A stretch of 64,000 nucleotides of DNA from a virus. Each line of letters opens with the position of its first letter. Within the stretch, counting starts at the first letter, position 1. Position numbers and translations under genes: made by a program. The notes beneath the pieces are model-generated. The model worked only from the letters and a program-made list of their open reading frames with translations. It searched no databases and was not told where the DNA came from. Positions 1 to 39,900 of this stretch are shown here, in pieces. The DNA is taken from the IMG/VR virus record IMGVR_UViG_3300028008_000009, positions 38,439 through 102,438 of that record, one strand, 5' to 3'.

Positions 1-2659
1 TAACTGCACCAGTAAATGGTGTAGCTGTGTAATCAGTTGATCCGACAATAGTAGGAGTGTCCGTAGAATCCGCCACAAAGTCTGCAATACGAATTGCATT
101 GTCTGTGACTACCCCATTACCTAAACTGGATTCTACAGGTATGGACGACTCAATTATTCCAAATGGTGTCGCTGTATGCACTTGAACTTTCTCGGGAAGA
201 GAAACAAAATTTCCAGTGCCATTGACATTATAAGCCCTAACTCTCAATGTTTCCACAGCCGCTATACTTGAATTAGTAATATCGATTGTTTGATCAGCGT
301 ATTGATAAGTTAAGGTATTCGCTGTTGGAATACCAGCGTTTAGGTAAGGGGTATTCTCTAAATCTGAATAACTCTTATATTGAGTGCTAATAGTTGCGCC
401 ACTTGTGCTTTCTAAATTAGCACCGTTGGATATTTCAAACACATTATTTGTATCTCTATATGCTTGTCCAATCCAATTGTTTACTGTAACACCAGCCATT
501 GTTAATTTTGGACTTCCTGTGTTATAGTATGGTATGCCTGAGATATATCTGTAGCTACCGCTGACACTTTCTGTAAGTGTTGCACTAGCTACATCAATAG
601 TTGGGCTACTTGTTAGGTCGTCACAAACTACTGTAACATAGTTTGTGTTGCCTGTTTCACTATGTTCTATACGCTGGTCGTTAACACCAGTTGTATATTC
701 AGAAAATGGTTTAGTAATTTTTGCATCAAATGTTTGATAGAAACCTGTAGGATAAGTTGAAGAACTTATACTATCGTTTGCATCTCTTTGATCACTAACA
801 ACAAGACTTCCAAAAGTGCCGTTTTCGTTTAAGGAAGTTGTAAAGTTTTGAGAACCATCGTCAACGCCATTGACAACTGATTTTACTGTTCCACTTAATC
901 CATTGTATGAATTTTGTGCAACACTAGTGTCAAGGTTTCCACTTGTGTATCGTCTTGCTGTAGTTGTTTCTAAACTTGCACCTGCTACCAATGGAGCTGA
1001 TGCACTGTTTTCTGTGAACCCATGTGCCAGTCTAGGATCGTGTCCTTGTGCTGGGTCTGTTAGTGAAATTGTTTTACTGCTCAAACCACTTGGTGCCGAT
1101 GGCACTGCATTTACTTGGAAAAATATTCCTGCATTGTCTGTTTGTGCTGTTATGTCTGGTGTGCCGCTTGCTGTGAAATCTAATTCGTAGCTTCCTGGAG
1201 TGGCACCAGTAAAGTCGTGTGTTATTATACCATCTGTTGTTGTTGTATCAGTGCTTCCATAACCCCAATCGTAGAAATAACTATCGCCGTTGTGACTTGA
1301 GTTATCTACTCTTGCTAATGCTCTATTATTACCATTGTAGTCAACACCGTCATATAAATCTAAATTATTGTCGCCGTTTCTATCTGAAACAAATTCTGCT
1401 CTACCATCTATGTATGCTCTTACATCTGGTTCAACATGCACTGTAAAATTTGCACTTGCAAATGGACTATTAGTGTGATTACTAATAACTGATAAATTTC
1501 CTACAAAGTCTTTTGCTATACCGTTTTCTTGATCTGAATTTGATAATGTATATGTGTGGTGGAACGGGTGATTTGTGTCACCGTCATCTTCTTCGCCAAC
1601 TGGTATAGTTGTAATTGTACCATCGCCCATTGTCCATTGATATGTTGTTCCAAATACAGGGTTAAATGTACCTATAGTAGTCTCTGTGGTATTTAAAAAT
1701 TCAACATTAACTCCACTATCTTTTTCGTTAATACCTGTAGTAACATCAATGGTGTATGTAGGAGTATGTGTATCGTAAATTTTATATGTAGCATTGTCAG
1801 TCATTGGGAATAGATTCTGATGTGCTGTGCTGTGACTGTCTAATGATAATGTAACGGTTCTTAGCACCTCTGTTTCTGTGCTAGGAGCAAATGTGTGGGC
1901 TATACGTCCGCCGCCTACGCCACCTGCTACATTATCTGCACTAACTACATCATCTGATAATCCATCGCCCCAATCCCAAGTATATTGAACTGTTGCGTTT
2001 GATGTGTTTGTTGCTGTATTTTCAAAATAGACAGTAGCACCGTCATCCCAATATGTTATTGGACTGCCACCTGTTGGAGAGGCATATGCCTCAAACGAAA
2101 CTGTTGGATCAACAGTAGTAATAGTAATATAATCTTCTCTTATTTTAAATACTGAGTGACCTGCACCTGTTCCACCATTGTTAGCTGCGTTTACTCGAAC
2201 AGTATATGGTGATCCAGTATTGCTTGTATATGTATGAGATACAGTATTAATGTAGTTAGAGTTTGGTACGATATTAAGGTTACTTGTGCTATCGCCCCAA
2301 TGGACAGCATAAACATCTGGATTACCAACTCCTGTTATTGTTAGGGTTACTGTTAATCCTGCGCCGCCGGCAGTTTTGTCAGCGACAAAGTCTACTGATT
2401 CAACATAAGTATTTTTACCTACGTTTTTAATAATTTCTAAAAGTTCTGCAGAGTCGGCATCATTGCCACCGTCTACTGAAGCTAATCTGGTTTCAAGGAA
2501 TATTTTTGTGACAGCATCTTGATCGTCAACAGGATCCACAACGTTAACGATTCTGTTTGTTTGGGCACTGATATTGTTATCTAGGCCCTCTGCATCAAGT
2601 TTTAAGTCTTTATCACTTGTTGATATCTTTCCACTGTTGTGGTTAATATTAATCGACAT
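1..2659 (-). CDS. PKD/Ig-like repeat virion structural or adhesion protein (partial, runs off window start)
   Basis: Absent from the ORF track, consistent with its stop lying outside the window. ATG at 2659 follows AAGGGAAGAG. It reads MSININHNSGKISTSDKDLKLDAEG..., with repeated PKD-type motifs (VHWGDS, WDWGDG, WTMGDG, YDWGYG, each followed by HTY/HTF-like strands). The same frame is still open at position 2 (...STDYTATPFTGAV). Confidence 0.8.
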   Translation of the reverse strand, partial: MSININHNSGKISTSDKDLKLDAEGLDNNISAQTNRIVNVVDPVDDQDAVTKIFLETRLASVDGGNDADSAELLEIIKNVGKNTYVESVDFVADKTAGGAGLTVTLTITGVGNPDVYAVHWGDSTSNLNIVPNSNYINTVSHTYTSNTGSPYTVRVNAANNGGTGAGHSVFKIREDYITITTVDPTVSFEAYASPTGGSPITYWDDGATVYFENTATNTSNATVQYTWDWGDGLSDDVVSADNVAGGVGGGRIAHTFAPSTETEVLRTVTLSLDSHSTAHQNLFPMTDNATYKIYDTHTPTYTIDVTTGINEKDSGVNVEFLNTTETTIGTFNPVFGTTYQWTMGDGTITTIPVGEEDDGDTNHPFHHTYTLSNSDQENGIAKDFVGNLSVISNHTNSPFASANFTVHVEPDVRAYIDGRAEFVSDRNGDNNLDLYDGVDYNGNNRALARVDNSSHNGDSYFYDWGYGSTDTTTTDGIITHDFTGATPGSYELDFTASGTPDITAQTDNAGIFFQVNAVPSAPSGLSSKTISLTDPAQGHDPRLAHGFTENSASAPLVAGASLETTTARRYTSGNLDTSVAQNSYNGLSGTVKSVVNGVDDGSQNFTTSLNENGTFGSLVVSDQRDANDSISSSTYPTGFYQTFDAKITKPFSEYTTGVNDQRIEHSETGNTNYVTVVCDDLTSSPTIDVASATLTESVSGSYRYISGIPYYNTGSPKLTMAGVTVNNWIGQAYRDTNNVFEISNGANLESTSGATISTQYKSYSDLENTPYLNAGIPTANTLTYQYADQTIDITNSSIAAVETLRVRAYNVNGTGNFVSLPEKVQVHTATPFGIIESSIPVESSLGNGVVTDNAIRIADFVADSTDTPTIVGSTDYTATPFTGAV

Positions 2660-2715
2660 ACTCTTCCCTTTTTTAACTTTACCACAATGGTTATGTTATT
2701 GCAATCAAGTATAAA

Positions 2716-3303
2716 TTATACTGTCACGCTAGAACGGAAGACCGAAACAATGTTCCAACTGCCATTTACAAATACCAACGATGCACTGTCGCCTTTTGCT
2801 GTGAAAGTAACTGACGTAAAACCTGCTCCATTTGTTGGAGTTACTGTAACAGGCCCCGTAGGTGTAGCTGATACAGTAATAATTTTATGTTGCCCTTCTG
2901 TGCCGTCTGATAAAACAAGAGCAACCGCAGTAGAACCATCAATTGCTGATAATGACGTGTCTGCTGTAATTTCTGTTGTTTCTGTTGTAGTAGATACTAC
3001 AACTGTTTGTATGTTAAGTTGATCCCACATATTAGTACTACTACCAATATTGTGTGTTTTTGTAACGCTTGGCAATAAATCAGTTGATATGTTGCTATTA
3101 AATGCTACAGATCCACTTGCGTTTCCTAGTGTTATAACATCACCAGATGAAACTATTGAACCTTCTATGTATAAATGTCCACCAACCCATGCACCGCCTT
3201 CGACAAGCAGAGCAGAATCTGTACTATTTAAAGCATTTAAATCAATATCTTTAATACTTTTAATTATTAACTGATCACCATCTGGTTTTATATATGATGC
3301 CAT
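2716..3303 (-). CDS. Putative virion structural protein (beta-rich, fibre/decoration-like)
   Basis: 195-aa S/T/G/V-rich ORF preceded by the late promoter CATAAATA and an SD (AAGGAAG). Confidence 0.6.
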   Translation of the reverse strand: MASYIKPDGDQLIIKSIKDIDLNALNSTDSALLVEGGAWVGGHLYIEGSIVSSGDVITLGNASGSVAFNSNISTDLLPSVTKTHNIGSSTNMWDQLNIQTVVVSTTTETTEITADTSLSAIDGSTAVALVLSDGTEGQHKIITVSATPTGPVTVTPTNGAGFTSVTFTAKGDSASLVFVNGSWNIVSVFRSSVTV

Positions 3304-3337: not shown

Positions 3338-3345
3338 TATTTATG
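3338..3345 (-). promoter_or_regulatory. T4-type late promoter (CATAAATA)
   Basis: Matches the T4 gp55 TATAAATA core and lies between a terminator and the 3303 start. Confidence 0.65.
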
Positions 3346-3372
3346 CCGATTTAGAAATTGCTTATAGCCATT

Positions 3373-3397
3373 AAAAAGGGCTCACAATGGAGCCCTT
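3373..3397 (-). terminator. Rho-independent terminator after the porin gene
   Basis: Minus strand reads AAGGGCTC-CATTGT-GAGCCCTT-TTT. Confidence 0.8.
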
Positions 3398-3421
3398 AAT
3401 AAATTCGTAATCTATAATAGC

Positions 3422-4225
3422 TTAGAAGCTAAAAGATACACCAACCGCTGGTGAGGTTGTTTTAGCATCTACATCATATGATGCTTCTGCATAAAGATCA
3501 AGGCCGTTTAATGAACCTTTTACGCCTGCACCAATGTGTTGTACTGTATTATTTTCGTCGCCGTCCATGAATACTGTTAATCCACCTGTTGTTGCATTTA
3601 CTTCATATGCTAATGTATCTGCTGCATATGTACCTGTGCCACCAATTGACAATTCTGTTGTAAGATCCAACTCTGAGCTAAGTGCATATGCTTTAGCTTC
3701 TGTGTCAGTGTTATAATCTACTGCTACAGTTGAAGCAATTGCTCCAAGTTCAATGTCATATGCAAGCTGTACGTTGTCAAGATCAGTTACGTCAGTTTTT
3801 AAGCCGTCAAAACCAGCCATTGCTGATAAGTTGCCCATTGTAACCATTACTGATTCGTTAACAGTTGGGTTAGCAAGAGTAGTTGAACCTACTGTTTCTA
3901 ATCCTGCACTTGGAAACAAGTCGCCTTGCTTACCTAGTGATACTGTTGCACCTGCAACTGTTGTACCAATGTGCCATTCTTCAACACTTACTGATGTGTC
4001 TGGAGTCGCTGTAAACGAAATACCGCCAAATGCTGGTCCTGTTCCTGAAATCTCAAGATCAAGTGTTGTTTTACCAACATACTTGTCTGATGTGTTTTTT
4101 GTTACGTCGAACTCAACTGAAGCACTTACTGGTGATGTCGGTGCTGGGTGAGTATGTGCTGTTGTATCTGCTGATGCAACTGATGCCGCCATCAACATTG
4201 CTAAAACGCTTATTGTTGTTTTCAT
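3422..4225 (-). CDS. Outer-membrane beta-barrel porin-like protein (alphaproteobacterial style)
   Basis: Sec signal peptide (MKTTISVLAMLMAASVASA), alternating amphipathic beta-strands, acidic composition and a C-terminal BAM-type signature (AVGVSFSF) ending in Phe. Confidence 0.75.
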   Translation of the reverse strand: MKTTISVLAMLMAASVASADTTAHTHPAPTSPVSASVEFDVTKNTSDKYVGKTTLDLEISGTGPAFGGISFTATPDTSVSVEEWHIGTTVAGATVSLGKQGDLFPSAGLETVGSTTLANPTVNESVMVTMGNLSAMAGFDGLKTDVTDLDNVQLAYDIELGAIASTVAVDYNTDTEAKAYALSSELDLTTELSIGGTGTYAADTLAYEVNATTGGLTVFMDGDENNTVQHIGAGVKGSLNGLDLYAEASYDVDAKTTSPAVGVSFSF

Positions 4226-4299
4226 AATTTATTCCCTTTAAATAATCTAACTTCGTAGTTAGAAACAAACTGACTCTCTAGAGTCAGAATTTAGTGTTA

Positions 4300-4328
4300 A
4301 TTATACTACTGTATGTGAAACTTGTCAA
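4300..4328 (-). promoter_or_regulatory. Consensus sigma70 (early) promoter for the porin gene
   Basis: Minus strand TTGACA (4328-4323), 17-nt spacer, TATAAT (4305-4300), with an A-rich upstream element. Confidence 0.85.
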
Positions 4329-4355
4329 CCTTTTTGTTAACTTTTTTTATTCATC

Positions 4356-4386
4356 AAAAGAACAGGCCCCTTAAAGGGACCTGCTC
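4356..4386 (-). terminator. Rho-independent terminator after the major capsid gene
   Basis: Minus strand reads GAGCAGGTCCC-TTTAA-GGGGCCTGTTC-TTTT. Confidence 0.8.
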
Positions 4387-4410
4387 CATAATATCTTCTT
4401 TAAGTAAAAA

Positions 4411-5571
4411 TTACTTAAATGATAGGTTACCTGCATTAACGTCAATTTTCGCTAAGTAGTCAGCTGCGTTACCAAGTGATGAAGCTTGGTTGTTAAGCTC
4501 TACATAACCATAACGTGTCATGAATGACACAGTTGGCTCGAAAGTTGCCGGATCAAGTACAGTACCAGATGACATCAACGGGATGTATGGGCAATAGAAA
4601 GCTGCAGCGTCAATTTCGCCTTCGCCTTTATAACCAACTAATACTGGTGTTGAATCTGATGCATACTGGTCAACAAATACACGTACTGTATTGTTCAAAG
4701 TACCAACGAATTTAGTGTTAGTTGGAGCTTCGAATGGACCTTCAGTTGTTCTTGCGAACGCTGAAGTTGTCGCTGATTGTAGTACAGTTAACATAGTTGG
4801 TGAAACAACTACGTAGTTACCTGCGCCTCTACGTGTACGTGCTGCAATTAAGTTTGCAGAACGGTTGATCAAGATCGCTAGTGCGGCATGCTGGTCACCA
4901 ACGAAAGTTGCTTGACCTGTTACTGCATTTTGATCGTATGTATCAGTAGCAGTACCTGCCAATGAACGTAATGAAGTTAATACTTCTTGATCGATTTCAG
5001 CAGTAATCTCTTGTGCAAGTGCTTGCATGATTTCTGCTTCAACATCTAGACCGTGCATTGAATTAGCGTCTTGCGCCGCTTCAAAAGTCCAACGTGCTGA
5101 TAATTTGCGTGTTTTCGCTTCAACAGTTTGCTTTAGAACTTGGATAGACATCTTACGTCCAGCCGCTGCTTCTAAAGTGCTTGTTGCTTCTGGTCCACCA
5201 GTTGCCGCATCGCCTGAGTAACCTTTTGCAATTGCAAATGGGCTCAATGCTTCGTCACCAGCTGCAACGCCTGCCGCTGCTTCTGAATAACGAATACGTA
5301 ATGTGTGGATCTGGCCTACTGGACCAGTCATTGGTTGAACACCAACTAATTCGTTCGCAATAACCGTCGGCATTACACGTCTGATTACTGGTAGAATTAC
5401 TTTGTTTAGTGTTGCGATGTTTCCTGACATAGTTGTGCCGGCAGCTGCTGATTCTGAAAGATAGCTCTTAGTATTCTCAAGAACTGATTCCATTACCACT
5501 TTTTTATTGCCGTCTAAACCGTCAGTTAGGGCGCCTTTAGTTACGTCCCAATTTTCAAATAAGTTTGACAT
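4411..5571 (-). CDS. gp23: Major capsid protein (T4 gp23 family)
   Basis: Motifs VGVQPMTGPVGQI, VEAKTRKLSARWTFEAAQD, EITAEID, FYCPYIPL and FMTRYG. Confidence 0.95.
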   Translation of the reverse strand: MSNLFENWDVTKGALTDGLDGNKKVVMESVLENTKSYLSESAAAGTTMSGNIATLNKVILPVIRRVMPTVIANELVGVQPMTGPVGQIHTLRIRYSEAAAGVAAGDEALSPFAIAKGYSGDAATGGPEATSTLEAAAGRKMSIQVLKQTVEAKTRKLSARWTFEAAQDANSMHGLDVEAEIMQALAQEITAEIDQEVLTSLRSLAGTATDTYDQNAVTGQATFVGDQHAALAILINRSANLIAARTRRGAGNYVVVSPTMLTVLQSATTSAFARTTEGPFEAPTNTKFVGTLNNTVRVFVDQYASDSTPVLVGYKGEGEIDAAAFYCPYIPLMSSGTVLDPATFEPTVSFMTRYGYVELNNQASSLGNAADYLAKIDVNAGNLSFK

Positions 5572-6691: not shown

Positions 6692-7329
6692 TACTTTCTC
6701 CTAATATCTAGTGATTCAATGAACTTCAATACCTCTTCCTGGAGATATTTTTGTGCTGTAGCATCATTGTTGTTTGCGGCGGCAACGTCAAGTAAAATAT
6801 TACCTCTTCTGCCATTCATAATTTGTTCATAAAGTGGATCTGGATACGCATCGGGTGCCGATGGGTTTGCAACTATGTCAACCGTTTGGATTTCAAAGCC
6901 ACTTACATTTCCACTGTTATCAACTTCACCACTGCCGCGTGATGATACACCAAGTTTAACGCCATTATCCAATAGAGTGATACAAATCTGCCCCATTGGA
7001 GTTGGCAACAATTTTAGTCTTCCATAACCATCACTACCTTGCATCCACATACGTTCAATCATATGTGAAACTCGGTCCAAATTAACTTGTAAGTCATCTG
7101 GGTGGTCAGCTTCGCCTAATACTGTAAAACCCTCGTCAATTTTACCTTGAACTGAATTAACAGCCTTAGTAATTTCACTGACGGGATAAACACGTTGGTT
7201 CTGATTTTGTTTTGCACCTTGTACAAAGATACCTTCCATGAACAGGCTTTTGCCACCTTTGCCGTTATCCACGGCTTCGGTGACCATTTTAGCTTGATCA
7301 AATGTAAGGTGTTCTTTAAGTGTAAACAT
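6691..7329 (-). CDS. gp21: Prohead protease (T4 gp21 family)
   Basis: Motifs NQRVYP, LGEADHP, LGVSSRGSG and DIVANPSAPDA. Confidence 0.93.
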   Translation of the reverse strand: MFTLKEHLTFDQAKMVTEAVDNGKGGKSLFMEGIFVQGAKQNQNQRVYPVSEITKAVNSVQGKIDEGFTVLGEADHPDDLQVNLDRVSHMIERMWMQGSDGYGRLKLLPTPMGQICITLLDNGVKLGVSSRGSGEVDNSGNVSGFEIQTVDIVANPSAPDAYPDPLYEQIMNGRRGNILLDVAAANNNDATAQKYLQEEVLKFIESLDIRRK

Positions 7330-8177
7330 TACTCAGATTTACCTTTTTTCTCAGCACCATGGCCACGTGACTCAGGTGATAGTTTTGCACCATCGCCTGG
7401 GTGTGTTACGCCCATGTCTTTTGCTGTTTTGTCTGATAGACCTTTGTCTGAACCTTTGCTGTCTTTTGTCATGTCAACTGCTTTACCGCCCATGTCATTT
7501 TTACCTGCAACTGGTGATGCTTTACCATCATCGCCTGCTGGCATGTCTACTGGGTGCATTGCGCCGTCTTTACCGACTTTTTGTAGATCAGCTGCTTCTT
7601 CAAGTTCTTCTGCATTATCGTCTGATTCTGCTTCTTCAGTAACTTCGTCCGCTTCTTCTTCCTTTGCTTCTACAAACGCTTCTTCCATTTCTGGTTCCAT
7701 TTCTGGTTCCATTTCTGGTTCGTCGCCCATAATCTTGGCAAATTCTGCTTTAAGGTCGTCTAGTGCGTCTTCTACACTAACTAATTTGTCTTCGATGTCT
7801 CCATGTTCTTCTTCATGTGCGTCTGTTTCACCGTCCATGTCAAAATCCATTTCGCCTTCTTCTCCGCCTAACTCTTCAGCTGCTTCAAGGTCGTCCATTT
7901 CTGGTTCCTCGTCTTCGCCAAAAGCCTCTTCAGCTTCGATTTCTGCTTCATCTGTTTCGATGTCATCTAGGAAGTTATCAGCTTCTTCGCCGCGGATAGC
8001 TTCTTCAATTTCTTCTTCTGCTACGCCATCTTCAACGATTTCATCTGCTTCGACGATATCATTCCAGATTTCACGTGCTTTTTCAACGAAAGCCTCATGT
8101 AATAGATCTGAAGCTGATGCTTCGTCTCCGTTCACTAAGCTCTCGATTATCTTCGTATAACGATCTCGAGTACTCAT
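7329..8177 (-). CDS. Highly acidic prohead core/scaffold protein
   Basis: D/E-rich protein in the position of T4 gp67/68. Probable start is MSTRD at 8177, after SD AAGGAGA and late promoter CTTAAATA (8236-8229). Confidence 0.7.
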   Translation of the reverse strand: MSTRDRYTKIIESLVNGDEASASDLLHEAFVEKAREIWNDIVEADEIVEDGVAEEEIEEAIRGEEADNFLDDIETDEAEIEAEEAFGEDEEPEMDDLEAAEELGGEEGEMDFDMDGETDAHEEEHGDIEDKLVSVEDALDDLKAEFAKIMGDEPEMEPEMEPEMEEAFVEAKEEEADEVTEEAESDDNAEELEEAADLQKVGKDGAMHPVDMPAGDDGKASPVAGKNDMGGKAVDMTKDSKGSDKGLSDKTAKDMGVTHPGDGAKLSPESRGHGAEKKGKSE

Positions 8178-8267
8178 TTGTTGTTCTCCTTTATTCAACC
8201 GAATTAATATTATAGGTTATAACATATATATTTAAGAAGTCTTGGTGTATACCAATACATAATACAT

Positions 8268-8291
8268 AAAAAACCGCACTTTTGGCGCGGT
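8268..8291 (-). terminator. Rho-independent terminator
   Basis: Minus strand reads ACCGCGC-CAAAA-GTGCGGT-TTTTT. Confidence 0.75.
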
Positions 8292-8329
8292 CCGTAATAT
8301 ATTTACCTTTTTAGCGAAAATAATGCTAG

Positions 8330-8530
8330 TTATTCAACGCCGTCACCTGCAGACCCATAAATGTTTTTAAAGTCTTTTACTCGTTCTGCATGTTCTGTTT
8401 TAGCAAGCTCTTTCATATTTCTTAGCTTGTGTAAATGTTTTAATGTAAGTTTAGGTCGACGTGTATCGTCTACATCCCACTTATTGTAGTTATCATCTTC
8501 TGGACTTTGTGCTACATCGTTAAATCTCAT
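8330..8530 (-). CDS. Small head-module protein downstream of the portal
   Basis: MRFNDV...TRRPKLTLKHLHKLR, with SD GGAG. It overlaps the portal stop. Confidence 0.7.
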   Translation of the reverse strand: MRFNDVAQSPEDDNYNKWDVDDTRRPKLTLKHLHKLRNMKELAKTEHAERVKDFKNIYGSAGDGVE

Positions 8531-10178
8531 CTGTATCTCCTTCTCCACCTAAATCATTAATTGGTGATGTATCATCACTCATATCTATATCATCGCCTAC
8601 TTCATTTTCGGCATCCACATCTGTTGGTTCAAACGTGTCTAGGTCTGTGTTTCTAATACCCATACCGCCTAAATCAGTTTGTGAATCGCTAGTAAATGAT
8701 TCGTCGCTGTTTTCTTCTTTCCACATACGCTCGTTATTAATAAGCTCGTCTTCTGACAGCCCTAGGTACTTGCTCATAATAAATCTCTTAGACATATATG
8801 GTGTTGCTTCTATTTGTGAGAATAGACTTGCACGTGCTGTATCTAATTCTAATTCTCTGTATTGACTAAAGCTCTGTGGTTCAATAAAGTTTAATTCAAA
8901 TAAACTACTTGAAACTTCGATACCTCTGTTCTTTAAGAACATTTTAAACTCTTTATCAATTGGTGGAAGTATTATGTTTTGTAGTCTTTCACAGTATTTG
9001 CTGAACCTAAATTCTTGTATCATTGCTGTGCCAACTCGTCCGTCAGTGTATGATGCTGATCCGTCCTCAGCTCCTGTTGGTAAGTAACTACTTGGTATAC
9101 GTAGTCCACGCATTAGTTTGTTATTGAAATATTTTAAGTCATCAATTTCGCCTAGGTTTTCACCACCTGGTAAAACTTCAACTTTAGATCCACGTCCTTC
9201 TGCTGTTTGGGCAAAGAAGTAATCTTCCATGATTGACAGCGGGTTATACGCTGCATCCATAACTTTTGTTCCACCACCACTCATATTTGGAATACGTGTT
9301 TGGTGAACTTCGTTCTTTGTTCGCTCAACAAAACTCATAGCTTTATGCGGTGGTAAGTTACCAACGTCTACATAAAATACTCTACGTTCTGGAGCTCTTT
9401 GAACACGATAGATAATAATACTATCTTCTAATAATTCTTTTTGTTTGTATACTTTAAATACACTATCAAGGATACTGTTACCAAATGGCCATGCATTTGT
9501 TAATCCATCGCTTAATGCGATATGCAATACGTTTGTTGAATCAACAGCAAACTCTGACATTTGGGCGCCTGGTGCACCTGTTTGTATTATTCCTGCATTT
9601 GATCTATTGCTAGTTAACACAGTTGAACTTGCATTAACATCAGAAGTTTGTTTTGTGTCTACTGCAACTAGATCTTGTAAATTTAAACTAATATTTTTAA
9701 TCAAATATTGTTCTACTTCTTTACCTTTACTTTCGTTAACAATAACTTTAGAAACATCTTGCACATTAACCCAAAATAATTTATATGTTTCTGGATCTCT
9801 AATAAAGAATTGATCGCCATACTTAATACAACTACGGAACAATCCATGTATTCTTCTATCAAAGTCGTTGATGTTGCACCATTGTTTAAGTGCAGTTTCT
9901 AATCCAACAACTTCTGATTCAGTTGCTTCTTCTTTGTAATTAATTTTAAATGGAAGCCTGGTGTCTATGTCTGATTGTGTACTAAATTCAGCAATTGTAT
10001 CTAATGCTGAGTTAATCTCACTATCTTGGTCCATAATATCATATTGAGTATAACGTTCAACACGATTTGGTTGTCCGCTGTATACTTCAGGAAGCCAACT
10101 GGCCCATCTGTTTGTTTTTTGTCCAAAAGATCCGGAATTACCAGGATCATATTTTGTAAAATGTTTTTTCCAACTCAT
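8520..10178 (-). CDS. gp20: Portal vertex protein (T4 gp20 family)
   Basis: Motifs LLEDSIIIYRVQRAPERRVFYVDVGNLP, EDYFF, GRGSKVEVLPGGENLGEIDD and LRIPSS. Confidence 0.95.
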   Translation of the reverse strand: MSWKKHFTKYDPGNSGSFGQKTNRWASWLPEVYSGQPNRVERYTQYDIMDQDSEINSALDTIAEFSTQSDIDTRLPFKINYKEEATESEVVGLETALKQWCNINDFDRRIHGLFRSCIKYGDQFFIRDPETYKLFWVNVQDVSKVIVNESKGKEVEQYLIKNISLNLQDLVAVDTKQTSDVNASSTVLTSNRSNAGIIQTGAPGAQMSEFAVDSTNVLHIALSDGLTNAWPFGNSILDSVFKVYKQKELLEDSIIIYRVQRAPERRVFYVDVGNLPPHKAMSFVERTKNEVHQTRIPNMSGGGTKVMDAAYNPLSIMEDYFFAQTAEGRGSKVEVLPGGENLGEIDDLKYFNNKLMRGLRIPSSYLPTGAEDGSASYTDGRVGTAMIQEFRFSKYCERLQNIILPPIDKEFKMFLKNRGIEVSSSLFELNFIEPQSFSQYRELELDTARASLFSQIEATPYMSKRFIMSKYLGLSEDELINNERMWKEENSDESFTSDSQTDLGGMGIRNTDLDTFEPTDVDAENEVGDDIDMSDDTSPINDLGGEGDTDEI

Positions 10179-10208
10179 ATTATTTAGGTACCTTTGTTAT
10201 AAGTGTAT

Positions 10209-13200
10209 TTATCTAGAGTTCATCATACGAGTGTTTATTTTTGATTTCTCGTTAATGTTGTAGCGTTTAACTATGTCTTGCAATACTTTTACTGTTTCTA
10301 TTGTTGATCTTTTAGCATCAATTAACGCAGATAAATCTTGACTATTGTTCATTATAGCAGGATTTGTTAGTTTTGTCAAGTCTCTTTGTATATCCTGTAG
10401 TTTAGTAGACATTTGATTATCTGCTGGTGCTACTTGAGGTATTTGTGTGTTATCTTCTACTACTGTGTTTACTTCAGTTTCACTGGGTACTTCTGTAGGT
10501 GTTCTATTTTCATCAGCAAGTGTTCTATCTGAATTAAATTGTTCAGACATTTCTTCAAATAACATTTTATTAGTAGATAGATTGTCTGAGAATGTTTTAT
10601 TATCTCCAGATAAGCGTTCAGACATTTCTTCAAATAACATTTTATTAGTAGATAGATTGTCTGAGAATGTTTTATTGTCTCCAGATAAGCGTTCTAAAAC
10701 TTGATTTAAGTATGTCTTATCAGTTAACATGCTATCTAAGAGTTTTTTATTTTCTTCGCCAAGTTGTTCTAACAACGTGGCCATATGCGTTTGATTGTCT
10801 GATAAATCAGGTGTTTGTTCAAGTTTATTATTTTCACCAACAAGTATTTTATTCTCTTCAGATAATTGTTCTATTATATCAAATAATCTTTGTTGACTAG
10901 TTAATGATTCCGCAAATCTTTTATTTTCATTAATAAGTTCTACATTCTGTTCAGTTAGTTGTGATATTTGACTGTTTGATAATGCAGGAATTTTTGCAGT
11001 ATCAGTGATAAGTTTTTTATTATCATCAATGAGTATATTATTTTCATCAATGAGAGTTTTATTCTCATTGAGTAATTGTTCTAGTTGTTCATTTGTTCCA
11101 GCTATATGCGAATCAATCTTTTTTGTATTATCTTGACTTATTTGATCTTTGAGATCTTTATTACTAACTATTTGTCCTGATTGATCTGGCACAAACATTT
11201 CTGCTGTGTCCATGCCCAATTCGTCACCAACAATATATGGTAGTCCAGCTGCAACTGGTCCACCGTGTTTTCTTTGAGGAACAGCGTCACCTACTAGGTT
11301 TACTTGCGCTCCAAGAGAACTGCCATCTACATTGTTTTCGGTAATAGGTTCTTCAAAAAATTTCAAAAGACTATTATCTTCTTTATTAAAGATTTTATCA
11401 CCTGAACCTGAGTAAACAACACCTAAGTTTTGATCAAGTGTAGATTTACCTGTTTCAGAATCAACACCGGTTGTAAGATCACCCGCTGCCATTGATTCTT
11501 TTAATAAGTCATATGCTGATCTGCCTGCTAAATTACCATCGCTATCTGATATTACAAACTGTGCTATTACGCCGGCATTTTGTGCTGTTTCTTCTTGCAG
11601 TGTGCCGTCTTCATTTTCGTCTCGTTCGGTTTTACCGCCTGTCATATTAATAAATTGTGCTGGCCCACCTGCTTCTACAACAGCATCCATTTTTTTGTCA
11701 TATGTATCTAATGCTACAATTAATTTTTCAGCGAACCCGGCATCAACAGTATTAATGTATGCAACTGCACCTTCTAAATTTTTAACATATTCAAGTCCTG
11801 CTGATTCTAACATTTCTAATGTTAGTTTTCCTTCGTTTTCTCGCATGGCTGTAATTATAGCACCTGCATCACTGGCTCTATCTACCTCTACATCGTTGTC
11901 GATTTCTCTTTCAACATCTGGATTAACTTCAGGTCTTTGTACTGCTGATGTATCTGCTACAATACCTGCTAGTGATTCAGCAACTCTTTCGTTATCACCG
12001 CCTGCACCACCAAAGTCATTTAGTTCATCTCCAAAACCTATTAGTGCTATTATTTTGTCTAATTCTTTTTTGCCACTCTTTAAGCTAGATGTTAACATGT
12101 CAAACAGTCCTGCGGTGGTTTCCATATCAACTGTTAATGCTTCCTGTACTGCAATAAACTTTTCACCCATTTCATTCATAGCTAAAACTGTTTTTCCAGA
12201 CTCTTTCAAATCTTTTTGAGAAGTTACGATTTTATCCTCAATTGCTTGTGAATCTGCTAGTTTGCCAAGATCTCTTTCTACTACACTGAATTCAGCAGCC
12301 AATGTTAATAATGCAGATGAAAATTTATCACCGGCGTTTCCTGCGGCTGCTAGTTTAGTTTGGTCTGCATTAGAAAGTGCATCAACTATGAATGATAAAA
12401 ATCCTTCAGCTGGTGCAACACCAGATTTTGTCATTCTTTCTATATCTTCTACTATGTTTACATTCATAGCTGTCAGTTGAGCTTCAAGTCCTGGAGATAT
12501 GTTTTCTAAGACTGCACTCATATCAAAGTTTGTTGGATCGCCAACTGATTTGTATGCAGCTATATTGTAAGCATCTAATAGACCTTGCAGACTCGGAGCT
12601 TTTTCACTCATAAGTTTTACTCCTTGTGCAATCTCTTTTTGTACTTCTGCTGCTTCTGGGAATCCGTTTTTAATAAGTTCTCTTTGTGCTGCTGATCCAT
12701 AATCATCTAATGCTTCCATTGATGCTCGCATGGCTTCTTGACGTGTTAGTGATGTTAAGTTTGCAACTGCTCCGGCTTCTATTTGCATATCAATAAATGT
12801 GCCATTCATTTCTTCAGCACCCTGATTTAGACTCTTATGAAACTGACCAGTTCTACGTTGAAAAGATATAAACTCACCATATGCTGACAGCATATCTTTT
12901 GAGCTCATTCCTAAGTCTCCAAAACTTTCTGCTGTTTTATCTAACTGTTTATAGTATTTTACAAATTGTGTACTACCAGAACTAACACTATCACCAAGTC
13001 CTAGCATACCATCACTAAATGTTCCTAGGGTGTTGGATAGATGCAAGTATGTATTACCTGTGTCTTGTATTCCTTTTCTTAATTCATCGTATGCTGCTGC
13101 GCCGCCATTAAATAAAATACCACTATCTATCATTTTTGCTTGTATTGATGCAAACTGTTCTAATTTGGCTGCATTCCAACCTGCATATGCTAAGAAGGCG

Positions 13201-33958: not shown

Positions 33959-36900
33959 ATGGCTAAGAAAAAAGCAGGAAGTTATAACACTCCAATCACA
34001 AAAGCATCTAATTTATTACCTCAGGTTTTTAATACTGATGTAAATAAAAAATGGTTAGACAGTACGTTAGACCAGATGATTTCAAAAGGTAGCCTCAAAA
34101 ACGTTGAAGGCTATATTGGAGATACTTCGGGCAAGAATAGAAATGTCGGAGACACTTACACAAGCGAACAAAAATTATCACCTACAGTTACAGTTAAAGA
34201 TGAGAATAAAAATCTAGTAGATGCAATTACACCAGATGACATTGCAAACTCTGTTAATATTAATTTCTCAGAATACAATTATAGTTCTGCCAATGCTAAT
34301 AAAAAATACAGTTATCGTCCACCAATTAATGTAAACAAGTTTATAAATTATACAAACTATGCATGGGTTGACCAAATGCCTACATACGAAAGTGTGCGAA
34401 CACTTAATGCGGCAACTGTAGATGCAGCAAATCCAAGTATACCAACTGGCTCAGACTTACCCGGTGGACCGTCGGATGGTGATTACTTTGCGTTAGACAC
34501 TGGTGGCACAGTAAGAACATACAGATATTCTATCTCTATTAATAAATGGCAACCTAGTAAAACTACTAATGCAATATATAGCAAAAATGGAAACAATGAA
34601 GGTTATACAACATCTATTAATCCAGTAGAACTTTCAGCTAATCAATTAAGATATATTGTGGAAGACAATAATAATACATTTGCATTAGCAGACCAAATGC
34701 TTATTAGATTTGTTGGCGATGGATGGGACCCTAGTTCAAAGATAGGTACATATCTTGTAACAGGCACAGGCAACGGAATAAAATTAGTACCTTGGTACAA
34801 TTGGGCCTATGGTACACAAATATATCCAATGACAACAAAAACTACAATAACAGTAGGTGGCATCTGGGACGAAAGCACGGTAACAATAGTTTCCCCAAAT
34901 ACAAATAGTTCTATGTGGAATAATAATCTTACACACTTTGGAACAATGATGACTGCATACAATGAAGATGCCAATAGATTACCTATATTTGATGGGTTCG
35001 TATTTAATAATGCAGAATCAAACCCAACACAATTTATGGAAGATAAGTTAATTGTATTTGGTCCTGAATGGGTTACCGCTAATGAGAATCCTGCACTCGA
35101 TCCGCTTGAATATTATAAAGTATATTACACTAGTAGAAATAGTACAACTGGTGATGTTTCAGTTAATGTATTCATTGACGCAATGCAAGAAAACAATGCA
35201 ATAAAACAATATATAGCAACAGGCGTATCAGAAAAGGTATGGGAAAAGTATAAGGATCAACTTATAGGTTTCGATGAATTAACTTGGGATAAATCTACAG
35301 CTATAGTTTCAGCAAAAGATTATATAGTTTCAACAACAGACAGTCCATTTAGAACTGCTTGGAGCAGAAACAACAAATGGACAGACATTAGCACATTAAA
35401 GAAAGTTAACGAACTAGTACATGACGGTATTGATCTTAAAACTTTAATAGAATCTAAGAACATTGCAAAGCGTCCTATTATAGAATTTGACGGCAAGCTG
35501 AATCTATGGGATTGGGCAAGTTACTCACCGGAACTAGGTAATAATCAATGGTTAGGCGTAGCTGACTTTATGGTTAAGCCAACTGGCGACTATGCATTAG
35601 AAACTGTCAATGGTGTACTTAGATTTGCTACACCAGATAAAGTAGAAATTAATCCAACTGATAAAACTCGTATAATATTTACAGAAAGCGAGCACCAAAA
35701 TAAAGTATGGAAAATTACATTAAATGGTACACACAAACAATTAACATCAGTTACTGATCTCCAAATCAATCATGTTATGTATGTTAGAAATGCATCGCCA
35801 GATACACAAGATAGATTATGGACAAACAGTGATGTTTGGTTTGATGGTGCAAAATGGAAAATAGGACAACAACGCATTGACAATAATCAAATGCCACTGT
35901 TTAGACTTTACACAGCAGACGGTGTAGCACTTGAAACACTTGACGGTGTAGTATTCAACGGCAGCAGAGTATTCAATTACAAATTAGGCTCGGGACATGT
36001 TGATAAGGAATTAAATCATTCACTATCTTATAAAGATGTCAACGGCAGAGCTGAATATCAATTTGAGAATTATTTGTTCACTGAAGATTATTTTCAAAAT
36101 GTTAGGTCAGATGCAAATAGAGATATTACACATCGTAGAAAAATTCCAGGACAATACTTCTTCAAGCATAATAACAAGCTGAGTACATTATATAAACAAA
36201 GCGAAGATATTGCTGGTGCTGAAACATTACTAACAACAGATGTTACAAGTGTAAAAACAGACTTAGAAATTGCTGTCGGATGGAATGCTTGGAGAACAAA
36301 TCGTATTGTTCAATTACACCAAGCCGGCAAGGAATGTGTGTTAACTGAATTACAAAATGGTGTTTACTTAGATAAGACAAATATCAATCATAATAATATT
36401 TACGTAGGTAAAAGCATACAAGTTGAGTTTGACAACTTATTAGAAAACAGTAATATTAAATTTAAAACTGTAAGTGGAACAGAAATTAATATAAACAATT
36501 ATGATCCAAATCAAACAGGATACACGCATAACGTATCTGGAATAGAAATGTGGAGAGATATTAATTACAACATTGTATTAAACGTTACTACATACAATGA
36601 TAAAATTATTATCGAGCCAGATGACTTAACACTAACAAATAACTATACAATTATACCGCTTGACGACTACGATGAAATAGATCATACTGTAGAGATCAAT
36701 GGTGTACATTTGTCAGCTAACCAATATACAATCAGTGCAGACACTATTACTATACCTAAAGAATTAATAAAAGTCAACGATATTGTTGATGTAAGATATA
36801 CAAACAATGACAATGATAATAGAGCAACAAACATTTCTATTCCAAATACATTAAAGCATAATGCAACCAACGAGTTAATAAAAGACTTTACTCATAGCGA

Positions 36901-39900
36901 AACAATAGGCCACTGGCAGAGTATAATAAACTCAACACCTGGATTCGAAGGTAACATATATTCTACCAACAACTATGAAGCGATAAACACGCACACAGTA
37001 TTTGGTGGTAACTTATTCATATACAAAGACCTTAGTTTAGTACACGATGCCTTGTACGCAAGCAACCAAATAGATTTAACTAATGTACTAATATCAACAG
37101 GTGAAGAATGGGATAATTTTAAAAGTAGATTCTCAAGTCAAGTAAGTAGACTTTATGCAAGCAAGCCTTACACATCGGTTAGAGCATTAGTTGACGAGGC
37201 ACTAAAATCAATTACAGTTATTCGCAAGGGCGGTGATTTATATTCAACGTCTAATATGGTTTACTTTGAAAAGACAAAAGCACAAAAACTTGTTATTGAG
37301 CATACTTTATCTTTTCCTACATTAAAATTAAAAAACAACATTCACAGCGATACTAACATACAAGACCATGCATATGTTTATATAACCGAGCTTATCAATA
37401 CAAAGCTATCTACGAGATTAGCAGTAAAAGATATTGACTATTATCAAATTGGTAACACAGTTACATTTACATATCAGCCAGTTGGTACAGCAACTGATAG
37501 TCCATACATAGAAGTTTATTATCATCAAATGGATGGCCAATCAAATGTTCCACCAAGTTTAACTAAACTTAGACTTGCACCTGCACATGTTCCAACATTT
37601 GTCTCCGGCACATTGATTGGACACGATTGTGCAATAAAAAAGGGAAGAGTAGATTCTGTAGTAAATGATATGAACTCAGACAAATTTGATGTCGTGTTAT
37701 CTGCATTATTTGAATTAGAGAAAAGAGTATATGCTGGACTTGTAAAAGGTGATAATATTAATTCGGATAACGAAAACATAAACTATGGATTTACTTCTAT
37801 GTTTATACCAAACAAGTCAAGAAAAACTTGGTACACATTAGACGTAGTTAATAATGCATTGTATAGACATTTCAAAAAATGGAAAGCTAAGTATATCGGC
37901 GAAAACATTACACCAGCAGGCTATGATGCTAACGATCCTAAAACATGGAACTGGAGCAATTCTGCAGTAGGTGGACATTTTAAAACTAACAAACTACCAG
38001 GGCATTGGACTGGAGCATACGAAGTATTGTTTGGAACACAAACTCCACACCTTACGCCGTGGCACATGCTTGGTCATGCATTCAAACCTACTTGGTGGGA
38101 TTCAAAATACAGTTGGGTTGACCCTACAAAACGTGCAGCTCTAATCAAAGCACTAAAGCATGGCTCTATATCAGAGACAAGACAGGACACAGAATGGGCA
38201 AACTACATGTGGGATTGGGATAATTATTGCCCAGTTAAAACTGATGGTTCACCTGAAAACATTGATAATGTGTTAGGTAGCGTGTCGGAATTCGACGCCG
38301 CACAAGAATTTGTGTTTGGTGATTGGGCTGGACTAGAGGGCGTGTGGAGAAATACTTCTGCAGGCAAGGCTGCATTAATAGATGTATTATTGAAACTAAA
38401 TCCAACAAAAGCATTTGGTAAATTTTACGCACCTGGTACTGCTAGACTAGAGAAGCATTTAGACTTCTTAGACAGAGACGGTAATATTAATACACTATCT
38501 TCTAATTTAATACCAGCAAAGATTTACAAACGAGTAATATCAGATATTACTATAGAAACTATAGATCAATTTGCACGTGGTACATTTATTAGACTTGCAG
38601 GACCACAAGGTGGAGTTGATGCAATAGTTACACCTAACTTTGTTGGCTCTTCTAATATGTCTTACATAGATGGAGTAAGCCTATCATCAAGAGGCAGAAA
38701 CTTAACAAACACACCTGCATTGTATACCAACTTTACACAAAAGCAAATTGATACTTCAACTGTTACATACGAAACAAAAGAAGTACAACATGTGTCATCT
38801 GGTATAGCTCAAGCATTATATAATTTTGTAACACAAAATAATATCAATTATAGTATTGATAATTTGCATAACAGAATAGATACACATTTTGGAACACGAC
38901 TAAATGGATTCTCAAGTAAACACTTGTTAGATTTTAAAACAGATACATTTGATACAACAAATCATACGCTTAGTGAAAATGATTTTGAACTAGCTATGTA
39001 TGAAAGTACACCTATTAATATTGCAATTGCAAGTTCAATTACAATTGAAAAGACAAACCAAGGTTGGCAGATTACAGGAGCCGGATACGGTAAACAAGAG
39101 TTTGCATTCTTTGAACCAAATTATACTAACTCAACTTCTTACACAAATGTACAAATTGGAACACACGAAGTTAAACAATATAAAAACTTCGCTCCTATAC
39201 ATAGCGTAATAGATTATGAAACAACACTTAAAAAGATACAAGATACTTATTCGTTCATACGTGGGTACTATGTATATCTTGAATCAATTGGTTTTACATT
39301 CCCATACAGCGGAGATAGTGTAGCAGTATCATTTGTCAAGTGGGCATTAAGTTCAAATTATGGTGATACTAAAACATTCGACTTGGGTACAAATTTAAAG
39401 TTTGCACCAACACACGGCAATGTATTAGAGCTTAACACTAGCATATATAAAGAAAATACAATAGCAACATTGGACAGCACAAGTATTGACACATCAAACT
39501 TATTCATTGATAGAGTCGATAATATATTGTCGTTGGAAACTATCGACAACACTATTATTGGTTCGGTTGGATTTGTTGTAGTTGAACATGACCATATAGC
39601 ATTGTTAAATGATAAAACAACATTTGGTGTTGTTGTTCATGATGATGTAAAAGATATATCACAAGATAGAGTATCATTTAGAGGATTAATAACAAGCAAC
39701 TGGACTGGACACAAACGTGCTCCTGGTTACCTAGTGTTTGATAATAAGATTGTTGAAAACTTTGATAGCAGTGTACAATCAATTGATGATTACTATAGAA
39801 CTGATAGCATAGATTTTAATCCAGCAATTACAAAACTAGAAGATATAACAATTGGCAACTCAAATAAAAATCTTGCAATATACGGAAAAGAATTTGATGC

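What the first reader, a model, noticed from the sequence alone, without database searches (positions are those of the whole stretch)
3373..4386. Self-contained early-expressed porin cassette inside the late head module
Seen: a gene for a signal-peptide, C-terminal-Phe beta-barrel protein, insulated upstream by the capsid terminator. It has its own perfect TTGACA-17-TATAAT promoter and its own terminator, and the next gene restarts from a late promoter. Established: such units are phage morons, and phage outer-membrane proteins (Lc/NmpC, Lom, Cor) are known mostly from temperate enterobacterial phages. Inference: a T4-like jumbo phage remodels the host outer membrane early in infection, either for nutrient uptake or for superinfection exclusion or receptor decoy. 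The acidic small-porin style suggests an alphaproteobacterial (Rhodobacteraceae-like) host.
Basis: partly seen in the sequence, partly recalled or inferred. Interest (0 to 1): 0.75.

Follow-up and report, generated by a model that had tools for sequence, protein, structure and literature searches.

The report
Virus-only mini-porin cassette in marine phage
An uncultured marine phage carries a self-contained gene for a small outer-membrane channel that belongs to an unannotated porin family found so far only in viruses, which suggests that many ocean phages fit the infected cell with a pore of their own.

Summary
Window 3422-4225 (minus strand) encodes a 267-aa protein with a Sec signal peptide and a C-terminal ...GVSFSF. 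The predicted fold is a 16-strand general-porin barrel (Z 17-18.6 to OmpU, OmpT, OmpC and OmpF). The gene is monocistronic. It lies between the capsid-gene terminator and its own terminator, behind a perfect TTGACA-17-TATAAT promoter that all ten close relatives keep. The next gene restarts from the phage's late motif.

Fifty-one related phages have no porin at this site, and two show an empty site, so the cassette is a moron-like insertion.

New here: the family has no Pfam, PHROG or NCBIfam name. It comprises 111 clusters among 1.84 billion proteins. It occurs in at least 213 viral contigs, in no cultured phage and in none of 185,579 species genomes. In T4-like marine phages it often lies directly behind a phage two-piece tmRNA, among nucleotide-metabolism genes.

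Not shown: expression timing, channel activity and host. The Rhodobacteraceae guess is unsupported. The best reading is a phage-installed, acidic, probably cation-selective diffusion pore made independently of late transcription. First readers of this scan noted the same family in two other genomes.

The parts
4411..5571 (-). Major capsid protein gene (T4 gp23 family), upstream neighbour; last gene of the portal-to-capsid block
   Evidence: Pfam PF07068 Gp23, E 6e-100. PHROG 138. 65-70% identical to the MCPs of Rak2-like jumbo phages.
4352..4387 (-). Intrinsic terminator after the capsid gene (13-bp stem followed by UUCUUUU)
   Evidence: -22.5 kcal/mol, z -5.0, 0 of 200 shuffles as stable. The hairpin is kept with different stem sequences in relatives and is also present at the empty site in L141 and L147.
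4324..4341 (-). Inverted repeat GTYAAC-N6-GTTGAC overlapping the -35 box; possible operator
   Evidence: Conserved in the relatives (alignment A2). Apart from one 1-mismatch site at 36773-36790, it occurs only here in the window. Function not tested.
4300..4328 (-). Perfect sigma-70-type promoter TTGACA-17-TATAAT, preceded by an A-rich tract
   Evidence: 12 of 12. 4 perfect sites in the window against 0.10 expected. 12 of 12 at -100 to -106 in all 10 close relatives, although the coding sequence is only 62-87% identical.
4226..4293 (-). 5' leader of about 68 nt with two 7-bp hairpins (4287-4270 and 4262-4247) and a Shine-Dalgarno AAGGGA (4238-4233)
   Evidence: Fold of -16.3 kcal/mol, z -2.65. 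The second hairpin is conserved, with a covarying closing pair, in 8 of 8 sequences. Its motif CTRACTAYGAAGTTAG occurs once in the window. The first hairpin differs in sequence between relatives; a hairpin there was read by eye, not tested.
3422..4225 (-). Porin gene, 267 aa: signal peptide residues 1-19, mature protein 248 aa, 16 predicted beta-strands, conserved L3 loop (residues 100-123), C-terminal beta-signal GVSFSF
   Evidence: dN/dS 0.22-0.39.
3371..3397 (-). Intrinsic terminator of the porin cassette
   Evidence: -14.4 kcal/mol, z -3.0, followed by UUUUU. 14 of the 16 other family members inspected also end in a GC-rich hairpin followed by a T run.
3338..3345 (-). Late-promoter-like motif CATAAATA(C), 42 nt before the next gene
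   Evidence: ATAAATA lies upstream of 20 genes against about 1 expected. GATAAATA holds the same place at the empty site of L141.
2716..3303 (-). orf195, downstream neighbour; first gene of the fibre block, followed by a 1053-aa fibre-like protein
   Evidence: No family hit. Homologues follow gp23 directly in L141 and L147. The downstream ORF has T7-tail-fibre N-terminal and PKD matches.

Best explanation
The unit is a moron-like, monocistronic cassette that was inserted between the capsid-gene terminator and the late promoter of the fibre block in one sub-lineage of uncultured marine Rak2-like (probably jumbo) phages.

Proposed mechanism, step by step:
1. Host RNA polymerase with its primary sigma factor starts at the perfect consensus promoter, independently of late head and tail transcription. 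This probably begins at the onset of infection.
2. The roughly 68-nt leader with two hairpins, and the inverted repeat over the -35 box, may modulate the output.
3. The product is exported by Sec and cleaved after ASA.
4. The BAM complex recognises its C-terminal GxxFxF signal and inserts it into the host outer membrane.
5. There it forms a very small 16-strand general-porin-type channel with minimal surface loops. The lining is conserved, strongly acidic and free of arginine, so the channel would favour cations.

The likely benefit is to keep or raise the outer-membrane permeability of a nutrient-limited marine host to small solutes during infection, like an auxiliary metabolic gene.

Shown: the sequence elements, the insertion, the predicted fold, purifying selection and the distribution of the family. 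Inferred: timing of expression, location in the outer membrane, ion selectivity and the benefit to the phage.

My sub-confidences: outer-membrane porin 0.9; own sigma-70 transcription 0.8; strictly early expression 0.5; a solute-uptake role 0.45.
For: Fold:
- AF2 model with 16 strands, pLDDT 76.
- Foldseek E 2e-9 to the Rhodobacter blasticus porin and to Vibrio OmpU.
- VIA Z 17-18.6, with 223-240 residues aligned at 2.8-3.5 A, to OmpU, OmpT, VhChiP, OmpC and OmpF.
- One distant family member touches Pfam Porin_4 (E 2.4e-5, 24.7 bits). The nearest named Atlas cluster is Porin_4.

Targeting signals:
- Signal peptide and terminal Phe.
- G262, F265 and F267 are invariant or nearly so.
- It is the only Sec-signal protein in the 102-kb contig.

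Channel rather than surface function:
- L3 (residues 100-123) is the most conserved segment.
- Predicted external loops are 2-9 residues long.
- The mature protein has pI 4.05, 33 D+E against 8 K, and no Arg.
- Conserved D, E, N and Q residues alternate with hydrophobic residues in the strands.

Real gene: dN/dS is 0.22-0.39, against 0.06-0.09 for gp23.

Own transcription unit.

Insertion.

Early or metabolic context elsewhere:
- Family members lie next to gp59 and gp32, RNR, GMP reductase, PRPP synthase and a cation-efflux gene.
- In 30 of 137 loci the gene lies less than 100 nt behind a two-piece tmRNA.
- In phage Melnitz that tmRNA follows an early promoter (PMC9004378).
- The related phage PA5oct depends on host RNA polymerase (PMC7318152).
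Against: - There are no expression, localisation or conductance data.
- The model is of moderate confidence, and the oligomeric state is unknown.
- Perfect sigma-70 sites also occur inside ORFs and before the portal gene. Such a promoter therefore does not prove early-only expression.
- Six relatives (L004-L007, L009, L017) also have a GATAAATA late motif just upstream of the -35 box, so expression may be both early and late.
- An acidic pore does not fit uptake of phosphate or other anions.
- Association with metabolic genes is weak evidence.
- The gene evolves 5-9 times faster than gp23 at non-synonymous sites. That would also suit a role in conflict with other phages.
Confidence: 0.55

Rival explanations
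1. It is a superinfection-exclusion or receptor-remodelling protein. The phage porin would replace, mask or dilute host porins that serve as phage receptors, or act as a decoy on vesicles, so that competing phages adsorb poorly. Conductance would be secondary.
For: - The gene borders the hypervariable fibre region. It evolves much faster than the head genes (dN 0.08-0.27 against 0.02-0.05), and its divergence is decoupled from that of the capsid.
- Very short surface loops would offer few sites for other phages.
- Early expression would suit exclusion.
- From my own knowledge, outer-membrane proteins of temperate phages (Cor, Llp, Lom) act at the cell surface.
Against: - The strongest conservation lies in the pore-constricting loop and the lumen-facing residues, not in the surface loops.
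- dN/dS stays well below 1.
- Existing host porins are stable and would remain in the membrane during a lytic cycle.
- In other phages the neighbours are metabolic genes and a tmRNA.
Confidence: 0.2
2. It is a lysis or release accessory: an outer-membrane pore that weakens or opens the outer membrane late in infection, in the manner proposed for phage CsgG pores.
For: - In several T4-like loci an endolysin-like gene lies 3-6 genes away.
- Marine myophages carry other outer-membrane pores (CsgG and CsgF) for which a lysis-timing role has been proposed (PMC9004378).
Against: - A general-porin eyelet passes only small solutes.
- The promoter is of the host sigma-70 type, and the window copy has no intact late motif.
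- No holin, endolysin or spanin lies in the cassette or beside it in the window.
- The family's linkage is mainly to the tmRNA and nucleotide-metabolism genes.
Confidence: 0.07
3. It is expressed only as late read-through from the capsid operon, or is a virion-associated protein. On this reading the consensus promoter is incidental.
For: - The gene has the same orientation as the late genes.
- Other perfect sigma-70 matches lie inside ORFs.
- Some relatives have a late motif upstream.
Against: - A strong terminator separates it from gp23.
- The promoter is invariant in 10 of 10 relatives, while the spacer, leader and coding sequence vary.
- A Sec signal peptide and a BAM signal do not fit assembly into virions in the cytoplasm.
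- The related phages PA5oct and Vibrio phage 2.275.O have no homologue anywhere in their records, and other genes follow their capsid genes.
Confidence: 0.05

Closest known systems
Trimeric general bacterial porins (OmpF, OmpC, PhoE; Vibrio OmpU and OmpT; Rhodobacter blasticus porin 1PRN; Pfam Porin_1 and Porin_4; TCDB 1.B.1)
   Same: Predicted 16-strand barrel, with Z 17-18.6 over nearly the whole mature chain. A long conserved loop lies between strands 5 and 6, where L3 sits. It has a signal peptide, a C-terminal aromatic beta-signal and an acidic overall charge.
   Different: No sequence match to any porin HMM or solved structure. The mature protein is only 248 aa, against 289-340. Surface loops are 2-9 residues long. 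The mature protein has no arginine, so the usual basic cluster facing L3 is missing. It is known only from viral contigs.
Porins of temperate enterobacterial phages: Lc of phage PA-2 and NmpC of prophage DLP12 (own knowledge)
   Same: A phage-borne general porin carried as an accessory gene with its own expression signals.
   Different: Lc and NmpC are close homologues of host OmpC and OmpF, sit in lambdoid temperate phages and are expressed from the prophage. This gene sits in lytic-type T4-like or Rak2-like marine phages and has no detectable cellular sequence homologue.
Outer-membrane pore genes of marine myophages of streamlined hosts: CsgG and CsgF in pelagimyophages and in OM43 phage Melnitz (PMC7029224, PMC9004378)
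   Same: Lytic marine myophages that encode an outer-membrane channel absent from the host repertoire. Enhanced uptake is one published hypothesis. The same kind of phage carries the two-piece tmRNA that precedes this porin family in many loci.
   Different: The fold and secretion system differ: a nonameric lipoprotein pore against a 16-strand porin. The cultured phages Melnitz and Mosig lack this porin family.
Other porin cassettes of marine jumbo phages noted earlier in this scan (e1-5362615, TorF/Gcw_chp type)
   Same: A self-contained porin cassette with early-type signals among the late genes of an uncultured marine jumbo phage.
   Different: It is a different protein family. PF09694 does not match here. 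That family has cellular relatives, and this one has none detected.

Membership tests
General bacterial porin (16-strand; Pfam Porin_1/Porin_4; TCDB 1.B.1) | 16-stranded antiparallel beta-barrel | tested here: met
   The AF2 model has 16 strands. Z is 17-18.6 with 223-240 aligned residues to solved porins. This is a prediction, not a structure.
General bacterial porin (16-strand; Pfam Porin_1/Porin_4; TCDB 1.B.1) | Long loop L3 between strands 5 and 6 that forms the constriction | tested here: inconclusive
   A 24-residue loop sits at exactly that position and is the most conserved segment. I could not inspect whether it folds into the lumen in the model.
General bacterial porin (16-strand; Pfam Porin_1/Porin_4; TCDB 1.B.1) | Sec signal peptide and a C-terminal beta-signal ending in an aromatic residue | tested here: met
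   MKTTISVLAMLMAASVASA|D at the N-terminus and GVSFSF at the C-terminus. G262, F265 and F267 are conserved across the family. Read from the sequence; no predictor was available.
General bacterial porin (16-strand; Pfam Porin_1/Porin_4; TCDB 1.B.1) | Significant match to a porin sequence profile | tested here: not met
   P0001 has no Pfam, NCBIfam or PDB sequence hit. Of 30 family members, only P0109 touches Porin_4, at 24.7 bits, below the cut-off of 27.
General bacterial porin (16-strand; Pfam Porin_1/Porin_4; TCDB 1.B.1) | Basic (Arg/Lys) cluster on the barrel wall facing acidic L3 residues | tested here: not met
   The mature protein has 0 Arg and 8 Lys. No basic residue is among the invariant or nearly invariant columns.
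General bacterial porin (16-strand; Pfam Porin_1/Porin_4; TCDB 1.B.1) | Homotrimer | not testable with these tools
   No multimer prediction or experiment was available.
Phage moron | Own promoter and own terminator, separate from the flanking operons | tested here: met
Phage moron | Present or absent between otherwise collinear related genomes | tested here: met
   10 of 10 relatives with MCP at least 95% identical carry it. 0 of 51 relatives with MCP 72-92% identical do. The empty site is seen in L141 and L147, and other cargo fills the slot in L142 and PA5oct.
Phage moron | Dispensable for lytic growth, and expressed from a prophage in the classical cases | not testable with these tools
   The phage is uncultured. 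No integrase is seen in the contig, but it was not searched exhaustively.
T4-type early gene | Host sigma-70-dependent promoter | tested here: met
   A 12 of 12 consensus, conserved in relatives. The related phage PA5oct uses host RNA polymerase with TTGAC/TATAATA promoters (PMC7318152).
T4-type early gene | Transcribed in the first minutes of infection and shut off later | not testable with these tools
   No transcript data. A perfect sigma-70 site also precedes the portal gene.

The most novel reading that the evidence does not exclude
This is an old, virus-only lineage of minimal 16-strand porins kept by many marine and freshwater myoviruses of streamlined heterotrophs (SAR11/OM43-type hosts). 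It would normally be made early together with the phage's own two-piece tmRNA. The window's jumbo lineage would have moved it into a late region with a private sigma-70 promoter. Its arginine-free acidic eyelet would act as a virus-installed cation channel (for example for ammonium or polyamines) that lifts a nutrient bottleneck at the outer membrane of oligotrophic hosts.
Probability: 0.3. Interest if true: 0.75.

Novelty: new variant of a known kind. Interest (0 to 1): 0.6.

Why it matters
Phage-borne porins are known mainly as host-derived genes of temperate enterobacterial phages. This is instead a sizeable, unannotated porin family that appears only in viral sequence. It has its own conserved regulatory architecture, and several marine myovirus lineages share it.

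If the protein is a working channel, three things follow:
- Lytic ocean phages routinely change the permeability of the infected cell's outer membrane. That process is missing from current lists of auxiliary metabolic genes and from models of nutrient flow in infected cells.
- The protein would be the smallest 16-strand porin scaffold so far, with almost no loops. That is useful for studies of porin folding and selectivity.
- The tmRNA-porin tandem offers a marker for a group of phages of abundant, hard-to-culture bacteria.

Tried and rejected
Searches that returned nothing or that I rejected:
- Pfam, PHROGs, NCBIfam and PADLOC on P0001: no family.
- Sequence search of PDB with the protein and with a family profile: nothing credible.
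- tblastn of four family members (P0001, P0049, P0044, L033 porin) against 50,697 cultured phage records: no match.
- Two pattern scans of 185,579 species genomes: 91 and 32 pattern hits, none confirmed. These scans depend on conserved peptides and could miss very distant cellular relatives.
- A third scan with the most divergent alignment could not run, because no stretch was conserved enough.
- Rfam on the cassette: only sub-threshold chance hits.
- I tested the idea that a glutamine riboswitch, like the one in Melnitz ssrA, controls the porin. No glnA motif lies between tmRNA and porin in L033 or L135.
- A tmRNA in the window's own 102-kb contig: none.

I could therefore not inspect the contexts of the most distant family clusters.

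Literature searches for a description of this family or of porins in marine jumbo phages found none in the held library.

Rejected idea: the antisense ORFs at 3534-3716, 3753-4151 and 4030-4227 (+) are not genes, because the conserved family lies on the minus strand.

Full report
**1. What is there**

The finding's coordinates (3373-4386) enclose one minus-strand gene, 3422..4225, encoding 267 aa. The N-terminus MKTTISVLAMLMAASVASA|DT reads as a Sec signal peptide with an AxA cleavage site and no lipobox. The C-terminus is ...PAVGVSFSF.

Upstream, a 13-bp GC-rich hairpin and a U run follow the capsid gene (-22.5 kcal/mol, z -5.0). Downstream, an 8-bp hairpin is followed by UUUUU (-14.4 kcal/mol, z -3.0). 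Between them lies TTGACA-17-TATAAT at 4328..4300, a 12 of 12 match. Four such perfect sites occur in the window against 0.10 expected. No other ORF of 20 aa or more fits inside the unit on that strand.

The flanks are a T4-type head block on one side: portal gp20, protease gp21, a gp22-like protein and gp23. On the other side lie orf195 and a 1053-aa fibre-like protein. The cassette therefore sits at the head/fibre junction.

**2. Late motif and the next gene**

ATAAATA(C), usually preceded by G or C, lies within 100 nt upstream of 20 genes of the 102-kb contig, against about 1 expected. It sits 42 nt before orf195 and 35 nt before the portal gene.

In the window the porin has no intact copy: GATGAATA lies upstream of the -35 box. 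Six relatives have GATAAATA there.

**3. The protein is a porin by fold**

With a 30-sequence alignment, AlphaFold2 gives 16 strands (pLDDT 76, pTM 0.70). Foldseek's best matches are the Rhodobacter blasticus porin and Vibrio OmpU (E about 2e-9, TM 0.62). VIA-align gives Z 17-18.6 with 223-240 residues aligned at 2.8-3.5 A to OmpU, OmpT, VhChiP, OmpC, OmpF and Omp32.

By sequence it matches nothing: not Pfam, PHROGs, NCBIfam, PADLOC or PDB. The only sequence bridges are weak. One distant member hits Porin_4 at 24.7 bits, below the cut-off. A Porin_4 cluster is the nearest named neighbour in the ESM Atlas (score 0.95).

The mature protein has these properties:
- It is 248 aa long, with pI 4.05.
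- It has 33 acidic and 8 basic residues, and no arginine.
- The loop between strands 5 and 6 (residues 100-123, the L3 position) is the most conserved segment.
- The predicted external loops are only 2-9 residues long.
- Conserved D, E, N and Q residues alternate with hydrophobic residues in the strands, as expected for a polar, acidic lumen (my reading of the alternation).

**4. The cassette is an insertion**

Ten IMG/VR contigs whose MCP is 95-97% identical carry the gene in the same slot. Among 80 further marine relatives (MCP 72-92% identical), 51 have at least 1.2 kb of sequence after gp23. None of them encodes a family member within the 4-kb flanks.

- L141 and L147 show the empty site: gp23 stop, terminator, late motif, orf195 homologue.
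- L142 holds three reverse-strand ORFs in the slot.
- PA5oct holds a homing endonuclease there, and Vibrio phage 2.275.O holds small ORFs.

The slot is an insertion hotspot. The unit inserted here runs from the promoter through the leader and porin gene to the terminator.

**5. The regulatory region is conserved**

In all ten close relatives the promoter is 12 of 12 and lies 100-106 nt before the ATG, although the proteins are only 62-87% identical. The alignment also shows an inverted repeat GTCAAC-N6-GTTGAC over the -35 box. Apart from one 1-mismatch site at 36773-36790, this repeat occurs only here in the window.

The leader has two hairpins. The second, CTRACTAYGAAGTTAG, is conserved, has a covarying closing pair and occurs once in the window. 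The first differs in sequence between relatives; a hairpin there was read by eye and not tested.

In other clades:
- Near-consensus promoters (10-11 of 12) sit 93-97 nt upstream in two clades and 202 nt upstream in a third.
- Leaders also carry a stable hairpin.
- 14 of the 16 other members inspected end in a GC-rich hairpin followed by a T run.

**6. Selection**

Against six relatives, the porin has dN/dS 0.22-0.39 and dN 0.08-0.27. For gp23 the values are 0.06-0.09 and 0.02-0.05. The gene is under purifying selection, so it is functional. It evolves several times faster than the head genes, and its divergence is decoupled from that of the capsid.

**7. The family**

- A word-indexed search found 49 clusters.
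- An exhaustive profile search of 1.84 billion representatives found 111 clusters. Full-length members are about 240-283 aa, and the search did not spill into the bacterial porin families.
- Every source name is 'hypothetical protein'.
- IMG/VR holds at least 213 loci, and JGI metagenomes hold 58 more, on contigs of at most 330 kb.
- The 28 nearest Atlas clusters are 100% Viruses where a taxon is known.
- Nothing was found in 185,579 species genomes or in 50,697 cultured phage records.

A maximum-likelihood tree places the window's lineage as one well-supported clade among at least seven. The clades follow genome context: 10 label changes against 27.7 in shuffles.

**8. Contexts elsewhere, and a host lead**

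Outside the window's lineage the carriers are T4-like marine and aquatic myophages with 33-43% G+C. The neighbours include:
- gp59 and gp32, the latter about 52% identical to cyanophage gp32;
- the RNR small subunit, GMP reductase and PRPP synthase;
- a radical-SAM protein, a cation-efflux protein and a sugar epimerase.

Rfam and ARAGORN find a permuted two-piece tmRNA of the alphaproteobacterial type in 51 of 137 porin loci. In 30 loci, from several clades, it ends less than 100 nt before the porin ATG on the same strand.

The L033 tmRNA matches only the ssrA of four kinds of cultured phage: OM43 phage Melnitz, Pelagibacter phage Mosig, Sinorhizobium phage Phosso and a Brevundimonas phage. 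Buchholz et al. (PMC9004378) report that two-piece tmRNAs are typical of marine phages of SAR11 and OM43 and that, in Melnitz, ssrA lies directly after an early promoter.

This gives comparative support for early expression of the family. It also hints that many carriers infect streamlined Alphaproteobacteria or OM43.

The window's contig has no tmRNA, so its host remains unknown. Its nearest cultured MCPs come from hosts of three different groups: Sinorhizobium 70%, Vibrio 68% and Pseudomonas 67%. At 36% G+C, a Rhodobacteraceae host is unlikely (own knowledge of their G+C content).

**9. Interpretation**

The best-supported reading is a phage-installed outer-membrane diffusion channel, transcribed by host RNA polymerase independently of the late genes. 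Conservation is concentrated in the constriction loop and lumen rather than at the surface. That favours a transport role over a surface or decoy role, but the fast evolution keeps an exclusion role alive.

Timing of expression, location, selectivity and benefit to the phage are all inferences. PA5oct, a cultured relative, depends on host RNA polymerase, uses TTGAC/TATAATA promoters and mixes temporal classes along its genome (PMC7318152). A sigma-70 cassette among late genes is therefore in character for this group.

**10. Limits**

- The genome scans rely on conserved peptides.
- The model is a monomer prediction of moderate confidence.
- The contig is a 102-kb fragment, so 'jumbo' is inferred from relatives.

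First readers of this scan noted the same family in two other genomes (e1-5975745, e1-5975751). A follow-up described a different porin family as a cassette in another marine jumbo phage (e1-5362615).

Noticed in passing
L010:7365-7861, L033:3866-4257, L056:1954-2296, L135:9526-9902 and 47 further loci: A permuted two-piece, alpha-type tmRNA gene lies in 51 of 137 porin loci. In 30 of them it ends less than 100 nt (sometimes overlapping) before the porin start codon on the same strand. This suggests a conserved ssrA-porin tandem in T4-like marine myophages. The tags end in YALAA, MALAA or MAIAA.
   Followed up: partly
window 10351-10379 (-), 20327-20355 (-), 63882-63910 (+): There are three further perfect TTGACA-N17-TATAAT sites. 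The first lies inside the 3' end of a 1153-aa ORF, 173 nt before the portal ATG, and the portal gene also has a GATAAATA late motif at -35. The second lies inside a 591-aa ORF. Their role is unknown.
   Followed up: partly
whole 102-kb contig; for example window 3338-3345, and about 10206-10213 before the portal gene: The motif [G/C]ATAAATA(C) is about 20-fold enriched within 100 nt upstream of genes. It is likely the late promoter of this phage lineage, in the manner of T4 TATAAATA.
   Followed up: partly
window 4324-4341: An inverted repeat GTYAAC-N6-GTTGAC overlaps the -35 box of the porin promoter. It is conserved in relatives and, apart from one 1-mismatch site at 36773-36790, occurs only here in the window. 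It is a candidate operator for an unknown regulator.
   Followed up: partly
L142:5216-6504; L081 (PA5oct) 7307-8884; L080 (Vibrio phage 2.275.O) 7294-8355: The slot directly after the major capsid gene is a hotspot for unrelated cargo in Rak2-like phages. It holds three reverse-strand ORFs in L142, a Hef-like homing endonuclease in PA5oct and small ORFs in the Vibrio phage.
   Followed up: partly
window 33959-45181 (+): There is a single ORF of 3740 aa, flanked by many co-oriented genes. It was not examined.
   Followed up: no
window 2-3303 (-): orf195 and the following 1053-aa fibre-like protein (T7 tail-fibre N-terminal and PKD matches) are 60-93% identical among relatives whose capsids are 95-97% identical. 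This marks a hypervariable host-recognition region next to the porin.
   Followed up: partly
PV764938.1 (Sinorhizobium phage Phosso) 349674-349730: The cultured phage with the closest capsid protein (70%) also has a short match to the alpha-type tmRNA found next to porins in the T4-like loci. No feature is annotated at that place.
   Followed up: no
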